A stretch of DNA of 64,000 nucleotides from the human T2T-CHM13v2.0 reference genome, Homo sapiens, in the NCBI RefSeq assembly GCF_009914755.1, contig NC_060938.1, one strand, 5' to 3'. Position 1 is the first letter of the stretch; every line of letters starts with the position of its first letter. Positions 35,485 through 42,562 of this stretch are shown in pieces. The notes under the pieces were generated by a model, which was given only the letters and a program-made list of their open reading frames with translations, was not told the origin of the DNA and ran no database searches. The translations under genes were made by a program, and so were the position numbers.

Positions 35485-36130
35485 TTTCTTAGCTTTAGTT
35501 TGGTAGGGTTTTCCCCTGGGACTATGGCCCACGACTCTGGAGGGGGCGGCACTTTCTTGACTTGGGTGTGATAGGTCCATCCTTTTTCTGCTGTCTGGAC
35601 TGTGCTTTCAGTAGTTAGGAGCACTAGATAAGGTCCTTCCCAGGCCAGTTCGAGCTTTTCCTCCTTCTAGTTTTTGATGAGGACTTGATCCCCGGGCTGA
35701 TTTCGATGTACTGGGAACTCCAGGGATGGTGCCTGTGCTAAAAGACCTTTAGTTCTAAGGGAAGAGAAAGTGGAAGATAAACCAAGTATATAATGTCTGA
35801 GAAACTGATCTTTTGTTTCGAAGGTGGAAATGTCAGCAGTGGAGTGTAAATAGGGCAACCCATATAGCATCTCATATGGGGATAGGCCAACATCTTTTTG
35901 AGGGGTGGTTCAGATTCCTAGCAAGGCAATGGGAAGGCATTTAGTCCATGGCAACTGAGTCTTTAAGACTAATTTGGTTAAGTGACTCTTCACGGTTTGA
36001 TTTATTCTTTCTACTCTTCCCGATGAAGGTGGGTGCCAAGGAGTATGGTATTCCCACGTTATGTCTAGTGCTTGGGCTAATTTCTTAATGATATGTGCAG
36101 TGAAATGAGTTCCATTATTTGAATTAATAT

Positions 36131-37606
36131 TTTCAATTTATTTGCCCAGATCCATTGGAGGAACCACTATCTATGACCGCTATAGTCTTATGAAATGTAT
36201 TTCTGAAGTAATAAGACTTGAAAGCCAAAATTACTCCTTGATCCATGGGCTGCAGAACTGCAGAACGGATGTTGTGTGAGCAGGCATGGAAACTATGGAA
36301 ATTAATATCTTTGAACATCTCCATCAGAGGCCTTAGGTAACCAAGTGCATTGCCAATCAGCAGTAGTATTTTGAAAGGAATCTTTTTTTTCTGAGCAGGT
36401 CTCAATAATGAGCTTAAAATAGTCAGTAAACCATGATGTAAACAGATGTGCTGTCAATCAGGCTTTGTTGTTCCATTTATAGAGACAGGCAAAGTAGATT
36501 CAGCATAATTCCTAAGGGCCCTAGGATTTTCAAATGATACATGAGCACTGGCTTCAACCTGAAGTCTCCAGTGGCAGGTGCCCCCTGACAAGAGAGTTGG
36601 CCTGCCCTCTGAAGCTCTGAAACCAGGCACTGACTCCTCCTCTCTAGCTATGGGAGTCCCAGATGGCACCTTCTTCCACTATAAAGCTGTCTCATCTACA
36701 CTGAAAATCTGTTGTTTAGTGTGGCCACCTTCATCAATGATCTTATCTAGAGCTTCTGGAGAACTTGCTGCAGCTTCTCCTCAGGACTTGCTGCTTCATC
36801 CTGCACTTTTATGTTATGGAGATGGCTTCTTTCCTTAAACCTCACGAACCAACCTGTGTTGGCTTACAACTTTTCTTCTGTAGCTTCCTCACCTCTCTCA
36901 GCTTTCAGAGAATTGAAGGGCCTGATCTGGTTTTGACTTTGGCATAAGAGAATGTTGTGGCTGGTTTGGTCTATCCGAACCACTGAAATTTTCCCCGTAT
37001 CAACAACAATAAGGCTGTTCTGCTTTCTTATCACTTGTGTGTTCACTAGAGCAGAACTTTTAATCTCCTTCAAGAACTTTTCCTTTGCATTCGCAACTTG
37101 ACTAACTGGCTCAACAGCATTTGGCCTATCCTAGCTTTTGACACGCCTTCCTCACTAAGCTTAATCATTTCTAGATTTTTAAAGTAAGAGACATGTGACT
37201 CTTCCTTTCACTTGAACACATAGAGGTCATTGTAGGGTTACTAAATGGCTCAGGGAATAGGGAGTCCTAAAGACAGGAAGGTGGGGAAGCCGCCAATCAG
37301 TGGAGCAGTCAGAACACACACATTTATCAATCAAGTTTGCCATCTTCAGTTTGTGGCACCCCAAAATAATTACAATAGTAACATCAAAGATCACTAACCA
37401 CAAATTACTGTCAGATATAGTCATAGAAGAAGTTTGAAATATTCTAATAATTACCAAAATGTGACACATGGAAGCACTAAATGCTGTTGAAAAAATGGCG
37501 CTGACAGATTTGCTCGATGCAGGGTTGCCATAAGCCTTCAACTTGTAAAAAACACAGTATCTACGAAGTGCTATAAAGGGAAACACAACAAAACGAGGTG
37601 TGCCTG
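36131..37606 (-). mobile_element. Tigger1 DNA transposon, 5' portion only
   Basis: Minus strand starts CAGGCACACCTCGTTTT (Tigger1 TIR); pogo transposase remnants (KILLLIGNA, QPMDQGVI); truncated exactly at the ERV junction. Confidence 0.9.
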
Positions 37607-40819: not shown

Positions 40820-42562
40820 GCATTTTAAAATCTGCTACTGTAAACCACTGGTGGCTGTATGGGATCCTACTGATAATAGTATTAGGATTGGGAACAACAG
40901 AGTGTGTAGCTTGGAGTATCTGATTAATAGCTCTAAGGTCTTGCCCTAACCGGTATGAGCCATCTGCCTTTTTACAGGCAGTACTGGAGTGTTATAGGAA
41001 GACATGCAGGGTTCAAGAAGCCCATCACGGACAAGACCTTCAATCAGAGGTTTCAAATTTACCCTGGCTTTTGAAGGAATAGGGTATTGCTTTCGCTTTA
41101 CTACTTCCCCAGGGGTGTTTAATTTAACATGAATCAGAGGAATCTGTAACTTTCAATTCCCGTCTTTTGACCATACCTCGGGATGAATGTGTTCTTTGTC
41201 TGTGGTGGTGAGCAAGTTTAGGGAGGGGAGGAATTTTCCAAGACTGATCTGGAGACCTAAGCCTAATTTTAGCGTTAAATCTCTTTCTAATAGATTTGTC
41301 CCTGTTTCCAGAATTAACATAAATTTGATACTAGCTGATTGTTTTTTATATTTCACTTCTGTCTCCTCTAAGATTTTTTTTTTCTCTCTACCTTTGAGTC
41401 TCCTGGCTTTACTCTTTCATACCCTTTATATTGCCTGGAGAGTGGGTTCTTTATAGGTTCTGGCCCCCTGGGTACTTTGTTGTATGGTGGACAGCAGAAT
41501 TTTCGCCTTCTGCTTTTGTTTTTCTTCATCCCTTCTTACATATACTTTCTGGGTTTCTCTCAGAAGCTCTTCTATAGGTCTATCTTTCCAGTTCTCTATC
41601 TTTTGTAATTTCTTGTTAATATCTGGCCAACTCTTAGTGACGAAATGAAGTTCTAAACATTCCCTGCCCAAGAGCGTCTTCTGATTCCAGGCCAGCGTAT
41701 TTTCTCATTTGCTCTTTAAGCCTTTCTAAAAATTCTATTGGTCCTCATCTTTTCTCTGTTTTATATTAAAGGCCTTGGTAAGATTTTGGGCACAGGGCAC
41801 TGATTCTCGAATTCCTTTTATTACCATCTCCCTAAGGTCTTTCATATTTCCTCAGTGGGCCGTATTGTTGTTATCCCATTAAGGATCCTGGGCTGGGAAT
41901 TTTGTTCAGTTGCTGGGACATTCTGACCAGGAGGGTGTTCATGTTCCCAAATGGTCATGGCGGCCCTGTGTATCATGCTCATTTTTTCTCCTGAGAATAA
42001 GATGCCTAAGATAGACATTAACTCAGCCCAAGTATATAACTGGGGTCCTAAAACTGATCAATTTGATCTGCCACTCCATAAGGGTCATCTAAGAGTGGTT
42101 TAAGCTCCTTTTTTAGGTTTAGGGAAGAGTCTGGGATGGCAGCTAGTTGGGGGACAGGAAGGTACTTTAGTCCAAATAAAACAGCACTATTTTATCATTT
42201 TCTTGTGTTGGGTCCTTCCATTACCCTTCCAATATTCTAACATTAGGCTTAGGGGACTACCACAGGGATATTACCATGATCATGGTCTTTCCTATCTTTT
42301 GTCTTACTCGCTATATTTGCCATCCTGGAGAAAGTGTTTTTTCCTGAGTCTGCAGGGCTCAATCTCTCTTACTAGAGATTTCTTGCACCCTAGCGAGTCT
42401 GTGGGGCTTAATCTCTCCTACTAGAGCAGGTCGGTATAAACCCCACATGAGCAAGCCACCTTTAAGCTGTATGAGGTCAAGGCAGAACCAGATCTGGACT
42501 CTGCACTTGCTCTGCACTCAGTTGTGTGTCTCGGCCACACACTTTCAACCTCCAGGATGTCC

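What the first reader, a model, noticed from the sequence alone, without database searches (positions are those of the whole stretch)
36130..40830. Candidate retroviral capture (transduction) of a cellular XPO6 mRNA by a HERV-IP10-like provirus
Seen: a 4.7-kb spliced XPO6 copy lies inside provirus B in the same orientation. It does not merely interrupt pol but replaces part of it: viral RT stops at ...HQWFTVxD(L)K (40820) and resumes mid-integrase at ENINSNNGTHFTA (36134), so most of RT, RNase H and the start of IN are missing. There is no poly(A) tail and no clear TSD. The 3' junction has a 5-bp microhomology (TTTTC 36130-36134) shared by cargo and virus, and the 5' junction lies ~580 nt upstream of the ATG, near the probable mRNA 5' end. 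Established: this is the signature of double template switching onto co-packaged mRNA, as in v-onc capture; FAM8A1 in a HERV-K is the human precedent I know. Alternative: L1 insertion (a TT/AAAA-like site abuts the 5' junction and AAAAT occurs at both ends) followed by deletion.
Basis: partly seen in the sequence, partly recalled or inferred. Interest (0 to 1): 0.85.

Follow-up and report, generated by a model that had tools for sequence, protein, structure and literature searches.

The report
XPO6 fragment inside an ancient provirus
The front half of a partly spliced XPO6 transcript sits where the polymerase genes of an old endogenous retrovirus on human chromosome 14 should be, most likely because the virus copied a host RNA by mistake, a rare but known kind of event.

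Summary
Window 36130-40821 (minus strand) is a copy of XPO6 inside a Pro-PBS, HERV-I/P-like provirus (32290-43544). That provirus has two LTRs and a 4-bp target duplication.

The copy is not a whole mRNA. It holds 15 exon blocks with 14 introns removed (2.58 kb), then 1.8 kb of the next intron, ending inside a Tigger-like transposon. A later Alu interrupts it.

It replaces about 2.78 kb of pol rather than interrupting it. There is no poly(A) tail and no flanking duplication. The 3' joint has a 5-6 nt overlap (chance 0.002-0.006). The 5' joint lies just downstream of the parental promoter motifs. Cargo-to-parent divergence (0.075) is statistically indistinguishable from LTR-to-LTR divergence (0.086).

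Best reading, confidence 0.6: reverse transcriptase switched templates twice onto a co-packaged XPO6 RNA, which is LTR-mediated retroposition. The serious rival, 0.3, is an L1-made retrocopy that later lost its 3' end by deletion. A TT/AAAA site 7 nt before the 5' joint and an AATAAA 12 nt before the 3' joint keep it alive.

No second copy exists in the human genome, and primate orthologues could not be examined. I found no report of this capture in print. The carried CpG island is the published RANBP20P imprinted DMR. This is a new member of a known kind.

The parts
32290..43544 (-). Provirus B, a Pro-PBS gamma-like HERV-I/P-type element. It is 11,255 nt, or about 10.3 kb without its three Alus.
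   Evidence: LTR pair and internal homology to many genomic copies at 74-90% identity. Gag_p30 and rve_3 Pfam hits.
43545..43548 (-). Target-site duplication GTTT, upstream copy.
   Evidence: The 3' LTR of the host provirus A reads ...CCTTAGTTTGG with a single GTTT, which serves as an empty-site comparison.
32286..32289 (-). Target-site duplication GTTT, downstream copy.
42930..43544 (-). 5' LTR of B (TG...CA).
42908..42925 (-). Primer-binding site.
   Evidence: 16 of 18 nt match the complement of the 3' end (plus CCA) of the tRNA-Pro gene at window 1126-1197.
40822..42907 (-). Viral leader, gag, protease and the first part of RT, ending in ...HQWFTVADFK.
40820..40823 (-). 5' joint between virus and cargo, with 0-2 nt of overlap (GC).
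   Evidence: Relatives read GATTTAAAAGATGCC where B reads GATTTTAAAATGC. A TT|AAAA site lies 7 nt upstream. Three-way comparison; chance of a 2-nt or longer overlap is 0.16; chance of the TT|AAAA site is 4.5-4.9%.
40236..40821 (-). Cargo: XPO6 exon 1 (582-nt 5' UTR plus the start codon), the transcribed half of the XPO6 CpG island.
   Evidence: 90% identical to G000:C16:28491841-28492424. 51 CpG, observed/expected 0.67. 40 of 58 parental CpGs kept.
37928..40235 (-). Cargo: XPO6 exon blocks 2-15, joined exactly as in spliced RNA, with the frame now broken.
   Evidence: 14 separate chromosome-16 blocks at 88-97% identity. IBN_N and Xpo1 domains. Exon-15 end placed.
38120..38431 (+). Alu inserted later into cargo exon 14. 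It carries an L1-type duplication of 14-15 nt and an A/T run.
36130..37927 (-). Cargo: the first 1.8 kb of the intron after exon 15, including a Tigger-like transposon fragment (about 36130-37606).
   Evidence: Contiguous with C16:28397762 down to 28395660, apart from a parent-only Alu. DDE_1 domain. Parental donor AAG|GT reads AAG|TT in the copy.
36129..36134 (-). 3' joint between cargo and virus: a 5-6 nt overlap, GAAAA plus C or T.
   Evidence: AATAAA lies at 36137-36142. There is no poly(A). The parental Tigger continues past this point.. Chance of an overlap of 6 nt or more is 0.0017, and of 5 nt or more 0.0056.
33179..36128 (-). Viral integrase C-terminal part and env, with an Alu at about 35153-35527. 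The polypurine tract is at about 33180-33191.
32290..33178 (-). 3' LTR of B, split by an Alu at 32814-33115 that has a 12-nt duplication and an 18-nt T run.

Best explanation
Retroviral (LTR-mediated) capture of a host RNA by two template switches in a single round of reverse transcription.

Proposed sequence of events:
1. A particle of a Pro-PBS HERV-I/P-like gammaretrovirus packaged a viral genome together with an XPO6 transcript. That transcript started at the gene's own promoter, had lost its first 14 introns, and still carried the intron after exon 15.
2. Minus-strand synthesis came in from the 3' LTR through env and the end of integrase.
3. At GAAAA(C) it jumped onto the same 5-6 nt in the XPO6 intron.
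4. It copied the host RNA to or near its 5' end.
5. It then returned to the viral RNA in the DLKDA motif of RT.

The product lacked about 2.78 kb of pol (most of RT, RNase H and the front of integrase) and carried 4.38 kb of XPO6. It was integrated by helper-supplied integrase into the 5' LTR of an older provirus, in the germ line of an early catarrhine.

Shown here: the anatomy, the replacement, the joints, the integrase-type duplication, and equal ages within error. Inferred: co-packaging, the order of the switches, the helper virus, and that the 5' end is the cap site.
For: 1. The cargo comes from RNA. It has 15 exon blocks with 14 introns absent. All 14 other matches in the genome are the XPO6 exons on chromosome 16 (15 of 15 candidates scored, 1 of them the window itself).
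2. It replaces viral sequence and does not interrupt it. 2,776 and 2,785 bp are missing relative to relatives L062 and L061, and about 2.1 and 2.3 kb relative to the shorter L064 and L063. The rest of the provirus is colinear with those relatives.
3. The unit was integrated whole. It has TG...CA LTRs, a PBS (16 of 18 to tRNA-Pro), a polypurine tract and a 4-bp duplication GTTT. The other LTR of the host provirus supplies the empty-site sequence.
4. There is no poly(A) tail and no L1-type duplication. Two Alus inside the same provirus still show 12-15 nt duplications and A-runs of 17-18.
5. The 3' joint has a 5-6 nt overlap. In 200,000 random joints, 0.0017 reached 6 nt and 0.0056 reached 5 nt.
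6. The copy starts just downstream of the parental inverted CCAAT box, GC boxes and CTTCCGG motif, and contains none of them. The motif names are recalled.
7. The ages agree.
   - LTR to LTR: p = 0.086 +/- 0.012 (non-CpG 0.070 +/- 0.011).
   - Cargo intron to parent: p = 0.075 +/- 0.006 (non-CpG 0.065 +/- 0.006).
   - Changes are split 42 to 43 between the copy and parent lineages.
8. The structure meets the criteria used for LTR-mediated retrocopies by Tan et al. 2016 (PMC5131818; passages and section 10 read).
Against: 1. An exact L1 endonuclease-type site TT|AAAA lies 7 nt upstream of the 5' joint (9 nt in the state seen in relatives). The chance of such a site 5-20 nt upstream is 4.5-4.9% in two relatives.
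2. AATAAA starts 12 nt before the 3' joint (chance 2.3%). The RNA may therefore have ended there at a poly(A) site, as an L1 substrate would.
3. The 5' overlap is only 0-2 nt (chance 0.16).
4. No second provirus with these joints exists in the human genome, so there is no sign that the chimera ever spread.
5. The point estimates put the cargo slightly younger than the LTR pair. The ratio is 0.87 +/- 0.14 on all sites, 0.93 +/- 0.17 on non-CpG sites, and about 0.72 on the polarised Tigger sites.
6. There is no excess of G-to-A changes in the cargo: 21 G>A against 21 C>T in exons 2-15. An editing footprint of retroviral reverse transcription is therefore absent.
7. A 10.3-kb genome is about 16% longer than the cargo-free relatives.
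Confidence: 0.6

Rival explanations
1. An L1-made retrocopy followed by a deletion. After provirus B had integrated, L1 machinery inserted a retrocopy of an intron-retaining or intron-terminated XPO6 transcript at the TT|AAAA site in RT. A later deletion of at least 2.8 kb then removed the copy's 3' end, its poly(A) tail, the downstream duplication and pol as far as integrase.
For: - An exact TT|AAAA site lies 7-9 nt upstream of the 5' joint, at a distance that fits a short duplication.
- AATAAA lies 12 nt before the 3' joint.
- L1 was active on this provirus, which holds three Alus.
- The point estimates allow a somewhat younger cargo.
- Deletion joints can also carry short overlaps.
- The conservative L1 cut-offs of Tan et al. 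2016 (three A in 5 nt; duplication of 5 nt or more) would flag this locus.
Against: - It needs two events whose ends coincide. This is the only large gap in an otherwise colinear provirus, and it starts exactly at the viral base where the cargo ends.
- No A-run is left at all. If the RNA ended at the AATAAA site, the deletion must have begun exactly at the first A of the tail.
- If the RNA ran on, the parental intron continues for at least 1.5 kb with no exon, so the retrocopy would have been 8.5 kb or more.
- Sense orientation has only a 50% chance.
- A 7-nt duplication is short for L1, and Tan et al. call the endonuclease site unreliable.
- The cargo is not clearly younger than the LTRs.
Confidence: 0.3
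2. Capture of an XPO6 cDNA during repair of a double-strand break inside the integrated provirus. This would be endonuclease-independent retroposition or a templated insertion, with loss of 2.8 kb at the break.
For: No poly(A), no duplication, loss of target DNA and short overlaps at the joints all fit this model.
Against: - Such events are very few and mostly involve L1 or Alu, and short inserts (recalled literature, not read here).
- A 4.4-kb host cDNA landing by chance in the sense orientation inside the dispensable part of a provirus is improbable.
- Nothing in the sequence asks for this model over the other two.
Confidence: 0.06
3. Classical read-through transduction. A provirus integrated upstream of XPO6 and gave a virus-XPO6 fusion transcript, and only the 3' joint was made by reverse transcriptase.
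For: The 3' joint looks like a non-homologous RT recombination joint.
Against: - The cargo starts at the gene's own promoter-proximal start and not at a splice acceptor or inside an intron.
- The viral side of the 5' joint is in the middle of RT and not at a viral splice donor or LTR end.
Confidence: 0.03

Closest known systems
FAM8A1 retrocopies inside HERVK14 (Jamain et al. 2001, not read; listed in Tan et al. 2016, Supplemental Table 8, seen)
   Same: A host transcript sits inside a human endogenous retrovirus and replaces internal viral sequence, with short overlaps at the joints (12 and 8 nt or similar) and no L1 marks. Divergence from the parent is similar (0.079-0.087 there, 0.063-0.075 here).
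   Different: - FAM8A1 is carried by a beta-like HERV-K element and exists in at least two loci, which shows that the chimera spread. The XPO6 chimera is single-copy in the human genome.
- FAM8A1 is a nearly complete mRNA. Here only the 5' half is present, plus 1.8 kb of intron.
LTR-mediated retroposition as defined by Tan et al. 2016 (PMC5131818)
   Same: A partial mRNA copy, a discontinuous LTR element on both sides, both LTRs present, overlap at the switch points, and small 5' truncation of the cargo.
   Different: - The locus is not in their human list. That list has 3 rows: two FAM8A1 copies and one ENSG00000176788 copy in MER4.
- The cargo carries intron sequence.
- One joint has almost no overlap.
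- A TT|AAAA site sits next to the 5' joint.
Acutely transforming retroviruses carrying v-onc genes (recalled)
   Same: A replication-defective genome in which host exons replace pol or env sequence, and which depends on a helper virus.
   Different: - There is no evidence of selection for the cargo's function.
- The cargo includes a long 5' UTR and an intron and gives no gag fusion.
- It is fixed in the germ line as a fossil.
Ordinary L1-made processed pseudogenes, including semi-processed ones
   Same: RNA-derived and spliced, with a full-length 5' end and a TT|AAAA site nearby.
   Different: There is no poly(A) tail and no duplication, 2.8 kb of target is lost, and the 3' end lies in the middle of an intron.
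Retrogene-associated imprinted CpG islands (MCTS2P, NAP1L5, INPP5F; named in supplement 4 of PMC9255983; their retrogene origin is recalled)
   Same: A CpG island brought in by an RNA-derived copy shows maternal-allele methylation.
   Different: - Here the island is only the transcribed half of a promoter island and sits inside a provirus.
- The DMR is classed as somatic and polymorphic: 23 of 82 individuals show partial methylation.

Membership tests
LTR-/retrovirus-mediated retroposition (template-switch capture) | The cargo derives from processed RNA. | tested here: met
   14 introns are absent and the exon blocks are joined exactly. One intron is retained in part.
LTR-/retrovirus-mediated retroposition (template-switch capture) | The same LTR element lies on both sides, in the same orientation, with both LTRs and an integrase-type duplication. 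| tested here: met
   The duplication is the 4-bp GTTT.
LTR-/retrovirus-mediated retroposition (template-switch capture) | The flanking element is discontinuous: viral sequence is replaced, with a gap over 20 bp. | tested here: met
   2,776 and 2,785 bp are missing against L062 and L061.
LTR-/retrovirus-mediated retroposition (template-switch capture) | Short overlap (microsimilarity) at the switch points. | tested here: inconclusive
   The 3' joint has 5-6 nt (chance 0.0017-0.0056). The 5' joint has 0-2 nt (chance 0.16)..
LTR-/retrovirus-mediated retroposition (template-switch capture) | No L1 hallmarks (poly(A) tail, duplication at both ends). | tested here: inconclusive
   There is no tail and no true duplication. 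The final AAAA and the AAAAT at both ends would still pass the loose cut-offs of Tan et al.. Both motifs belong to the viral and parental sequences.
LTR-/retrovirus-mediated retroposition (template-switch capture) | The cargo is not younger than the integration. | tested here: inconclusive
   The ratio of cargo divergence to LTR divergence is 0.87 +/- 0.14 on all sites, 0.93 +/- 0.17 on non-CpG sites, and about 0.72 on polarised sites.
LTR-/retrovirus-mediated retroposition (template-switch capture) | Secondary copies with identical joints. This is not required, but it is the only proof from sequence alone. | tested here: not met
   One search found only the window itself and the 14 parental exon blocks in the human genome. 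Other primates are not on hand.
L1-mediated processed pseudogene | Poly(A) tail at the 3' end. | tested here: not met
   The sequence reads ...AATAAATTGAAAA and then viral sequence.
L1-mediated processed pseudogene | Target-site duplication of 7-20 bp, with the target otherwise continuous. | tested here: not met
   The two flanks lie 2.78 kb apart in cargo-free relatives.
L1-mediated processed pseudogene | A TT|AAAA-type cleavage site at the start of the upstream duplication. | tested here: met
   An exact site lies 7 nt upstream of the joint, and it is present in 9 of the 10 distinct relatives compared. The chance is 4.5-4.9%.
HERV-I/P (HERVIP10-like) class I endogenous retrovirus | PBS for tRNA-Pro or tRNA-Ile, gamma-like gag/pol/env, and similarity to the family. 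| tested here: inconclusive
   The PBS matches tRNA-Pro at 16 of 18. Pfam finds Gag_p30 and integrase. Many genomic copies are 74-90% identical. The Repbase/Dfam name HERVIP10 could not be tested because no repeat library is on hand.

The most novel reading that the evidence does not exclude
A defective, transducing gammaretrovirus entered the germ line of an early catarrhine. It carried the 5' half of an incompletely spliced XPO6 transcript, including the transcribed half of the gene's CpG island. That virus-delivered island has stayed CpG-rich for roughly 30 million years. It is today the polymorphic, maternally methylated RANBP20P DMR, with H3K4me3 on the unmethylated allele. On this reading a retrovirus moved a piece of host promoter island to a new chromosome, where it kept an epigenetic life of its own.
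Probability: 0.45. Interest if true: 0.7.

Novelty: new member of a known kind. Interest (0 to 1): 0.55.

Why it matters
Host-gene capture by a retrovirus that then became fixed in the human germ line is documented for very few loci. Tan et al. 2016 list three human retrocopies from two parent genes, and XPO6 is not among them.

If the capture reading is right, this would be:
- a further independent case;
- the only provirus-carried one with a tRNA-Pro-type PBS and gamma-like genes (their other two are in HERVK14 and MER4);
- the only one of these cases shown to carry intron sequence, which bears on which host RNAs reach virions.

It also explains where a published imprinted DMR (RANBP20P, PMC9255983 and PMC12322394) comes from. 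The DMR is the 5' UTR half of the XPO6 CpG island, moved from chromosome 16 to chromosome 14 inside a provirus. That origin holds whichever enzyme made the copy.

Tried and rejected
- APOBEC-type editing footprint. I compared G>A with C>T changes, parent to copy. Exons 2-15 gave 21 against 21 (non-CpG 7 against 7). Exon 1 gave 16 against 7, but that exon is G-rich and the changes are unpolarised. There is no usable signal.
- Sibling proviruses. A whole-genome search with the exon part found only the window itself and the parent.
- Polarised clock. 27 other Tigger copies served as outgroup. The result was symmetric, 42 against 43 changes, so there is no extra mutation load on the copy. The precision is too low to separate the models.
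- L1 insertion primed at the integrase site, with a 2.8-kb target deletion. Rejected because it needs a non-canonical TTTT/C site, no tail at all and a large deletion at once.
- Read-through transduction. Rejected because of the position of the 5' joint.
- DNA-level duplication or gene conversion. Rejected because 14 introns are missing.
- Assembly artefact. Unlikely, because RefSeq already annotates the pseudogene (RANBP20P) and the published DMR lies on the same stretch.
- Literature searches for a prior description gave nothing on this capture. The term sets were 'endogenous retrovirus' + XPO6, RANBP20P, HERVIP10 + transduc, XPO6 + retrocopy, and a five-term capture query. These searches cover open-access full text only.
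I used stop-free ORFs instead.
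Full report
WHAT IS THERE

The window is human chromosome 14 (T2T), and its whole assembly could be searched. On the minus strand there is a provirus, B, at 32290-43544.
- Its LTRs are 42930-43544 and 32290-33178. 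The second is split by an Alu at 32814-33115.
- The LTRs begin TG and end CA.
- Directly after the 5' LTR lies an 18-nt primer-binding site. It matches the complement of the 3' end of the window's own tRNA-Pro gene (plus CCA) at 16 of 18 positions.
- A polypurine tract precedes the 3' LTR.
- The element is flanked by the 4-bp duplication GTTT.

B sits inside the 5' LTR of an older, unrelated gamma-like provirus A.
- A's LTR-like pair is 43559-43995 and 24943-25380, 85% identical.
- A's other LTR reads ...CCTTAGTTTGG with a single GTTT and serves as an empty-site comparison.

B was therefore integrated as a unit by an integrase.

THE CARGO

Between 40821 and 36130 the viral sequence is replaced by XPO6 sequence in the same orientation.
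- A whole-genome search with the exon part gave 15 matches: the window itself and 14 separate blocks of the XPO6 gene on chromosome 16, at 88-97% identity (all 15 candidates were scored).
- With the next block there are 15 exon blocks, joined exactly as in spliced RNA.
- Pfam finds the importin-beta N-terminal domain and the exportin-1-like domain in the translations.
- After the 145-nt fifteenth block the copy does not continue with the next exon. It runs on for 1,798 nt that are contiguous with the chromosome-16 intron. This stretch includes a Tigger-like DNA transposon fragment with a DDE_1 domain. Copies of that transposon are scattered over the genome at 74-78% identity.
- The parental donor AAG|GT reads AAG|TT in the copy.
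- The parent carries an Alu with its own duplication that the copy lacks.
- The copy carries an Alu at 38120-38431, with a 14-15 nt duplication, that the parent lacks.

RefSeq's RANBP20P annotation (37925-40453) covers only part of it.

REPLACEMENT, NOT INTERRUPTION

Four cargo-free relatives were fetched and compared.
- Viral homology runs to window 40820-40824 and resumes at 36134-36141.
- The two longest relatives have 2,785 bp (L061) and 2,776 bp (L062) between these points. Two shorter ones have about 2.3 and 2.1 kb.
- In L062 this interval holds the RT connection and RNase H domains and about 60% of the integrase core.
- Elsewhere B is colinear with the relatives, apart from a gap of about 0.2-0.3 kb in gag-pro.
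- Without its three Alus B is about 10.3 kb, against roughly 8.8-8.9 kb for the relatives.

THE JOINTS

3' joint:

| Source | Sequence |
|---|---|
| XPO6 parent | ...AATAAACTGAAAAC\|CTTCTGG, where the Tigger goes on |
| 3 of 4 viral relatives | ...ATAGAAAAC\|ATTGATTC |
| the fourth relative | GAAAAT at the same place |
| the chimera | ...AATAAATTGAAAATATTAATTC |

- The overlap is 5-6 nt. In 200,000 random joints between the parental and viral sequences, an overlap of 6 nt or more occurred at a rate of 0.0017, and 5 nt or more at 0.0056.
- No A-run is present beyond the four As that both partners share.

5' joint:
- Twelve rows from ten distinct relatives read GATTTAAAAGATGCC or a close variant. 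B reads GATTTTAAAATGC and then the parental GCTGT(T)GGTCGGGGGCGG.
- The overlap is 0-2 nt (chance 0.16). The last viral bases are irregular.

Two coincidences need stating.
- An exact TT|AAAA site lies 7 nt before the 5' joint. The chance of such a site 5-20 nt upstream is 4.9% in L061 and 4.5% in L062.
- An AATAAA starts 12 nt before the 3' joint. The chance is 2.3% within the parental intron.

THE 5' END OF THE CARGO

- The copy starts 582 nt upstream of the ATG, at the peak of the parental CpG island.
- Immediately upstream in the parent, and absent from the copy, are GC boxes, an inverted CCAAT box about 75 nt away and a CTTCCGG motif about 10-15 nt away. The motif identities are recalled consensus sequences.
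- This is where a start site of a TATA-less promoter is expected. I could not check it against transcript data.

AGES

| Comparison | Sites | Differences | p (all sites) | p (non-CpG) |
|---|---|---|---|---|
| LTR to LTR | 571 | 49 | 0.086 +/- 0.012 | 0.070 +/- 0.011 |
| Exon 15 plus intron, copy to parent | 1,891 | 141 | 0.075 +/- 0.006 | 0.065 +/- 0.006 |
| Exons 2-14, copy to parent | 1,847 | 101 | 0.055 | 0.035 |

- The lower value for exons 2-14 is expected if the parent is constrained.
- With 27 other Tigger copies as outgroup, 1,362 sites could be polarised. They gave 42 changes on the copy lineage, 43 on the parent lineage and 8 ambiguous.
- The cargo and the LTR pair are therefore the same age within error. 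The ratio is 0.87 +/- 0.14. The data would also allow the cargo to be up to about a third younger.
- With a recalled neutral rate of about 1.1-1.3e-9 per site per year, this is roughly 25-45 million years.
- Independent hint: supplement 4 of PMC9255983 lists a partially methylated liftOver orthologue of the island in rhesus macaque and chimpanzee. This suggests the cargo predates the split between apes and Old World monkeys. It is indirect, because I did not see the macaque sequence.

WEIGHING THE MECHANISMS

Capture by two template switches predicts every structural feature at once:
- sense orientation;
- replacement of a cis-dispensable part of the genome;
- intact LTRs, PBS and polypurine tract;
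- an integrase-type duplication;
- no tail and no L1 duplication;
- an overlap at the switch onto the host RNA;
- a cargo that runs to or near the 5' end of its RNA;
- equal age.

It matches the criteria and the examples of Tan et al. 2016.
- Their human list does not contain this locus. It has three rows: two FAM8A1 copies in HERVK14 and one copy of ENSG00000176788 in MER4.
- Their deliberately loose L1 cut-offs (three As in 5 nt; a 5-nt duplication) would have flagged it.

The L1-plus-deletion model has points in its favour. It explains the TT|AAAA site and, if the RNA ended at the AATAAA, that site as well. L1 clearly worked on this provirus, which holds three Alus; the two examined keep 12-15 nt duplications and A-runs of 17-18 nt.

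It also has costs.
- It needs a second, independent event whose left end falls exactly where no A is left, or else a retrocopy of 8.5 kb or more.
- It needs the right orientation by chance.
- It needs an early insertion.

My rough weighing is 0.6 for capture, 0.3 for L1 plus deletion, and the rest for break-repair capture or read-through. It rests on base rates that are partly recalled and uncertain by an order of magnitude. The sequence in hand cannot settle it; primate orthologues can.

WHAT ELSE THE LOCUS SHOWS

The captured exon 1 is still a CpG island.
- It has 51 CpGs in 586 nt, observed/expected 0.67, against 0.75 in the parent.
- 40 of 58 parental CpGs are kept in exon 1, against 20 of 49 in exons 2-15 (Fisher p = 0.006).
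- It is the only place in the 64-kb window where a 502-nt stretch holds 42 or more CpGs.
- It is therefore the 'RANBP20P' DMR of PMC9255983: hg38 chr14:20723415-20723916, 42 CpGs, maternal, somatic, on a UCSC CpG island, with H3K4me3 on the opposite allele, and partial methylation in 23 of 82 individuals.
- PMC12322394 uses the same DMR as a polymorphic parent-of-origin marker.
- Neither paper, in the passages I read, mentions XPO6 or a provirus. A search of PMC9255983 for words beginning 'retro' gave none.

NOVELTY

The kind of event is known, both as retroviral transduction and as LTR-mediated retroposition. I found no description of this locus as such an event in five literature searches. 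These cover open-access text only, and PDF supplements were not readable. If the capture reading holds, this is a new member of a known kind with three unusual points:
- a Pro-PBS, gamma-like carrier;
- intron sequence in the cargo;
- a delivered CpG island with allele-specific methylation.

Noticed in passing
window 24943-43995: Provirus B is nested in the 5' LTR of an older, unrelated gamma-like provirus A. A's LTR-like pair is 43559-43995 and 24943-25380 (85% identical). Its gag-pro-pol lies on the minus strand from 31867 down to about 27800, with RNase_H and RT_RNaseH Pfam hits. A's family was not identified.
   Followed up: partly
window 40236-40821: The captured XPO6 exon 1 is still a CpG island and is the published RANBP20P maternally methylated, polymorphic DMR. 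CpG loss is slower here than in the rest of the cargo: 40 of 58 kept against 20 of 49.
   Followed up: yes
window 43064 (inside B's 5' LTR, 42930-43544): According to the gene table supplied with the finding, transcripts of the minus-strand lncRNA LOC107984671 end at 43064. That is inside the provirus's 5' LTR, as if they use the LTR's polyadenylation signal.
   Followed up: no
window 37926-37928: The splice donor after exon 15 is AAG|GT in the parent but AAG|TT in the copy. This is probably a later substitution, but it sits exactly at the one intron that was retained.
   Followed up: no
G000:C16:28396625-28396919 (L006): The parental XPO6 intron carries an Alu with its own duplication (GGCCAAAGGCTCT) that the copy lacks. 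It was therefore inserted after the copy was made.
   Followed up: partly
L063, L064 and other loci: Several cargo-free relatives have a shorter RT-to-integrase interval than the 2.78 kb of L061 and L062: about 2.3 and 2.1 kb in the two fetched. By my hand subtraction of coordinates, some others have as little as about 1.4-1.7 kb. Internal pol deletions are therefore common in this family. Whether they arose before or after integration was not examined.
   Followed up: no
window 1126-1197: A tRNA-Pro(TGG) gene in the same window has the 3' end that the provirus's primer-binding site matches at 16 of 18. This was convenient for the test and is otherwise a coincidence of location.
   Followed up: yes
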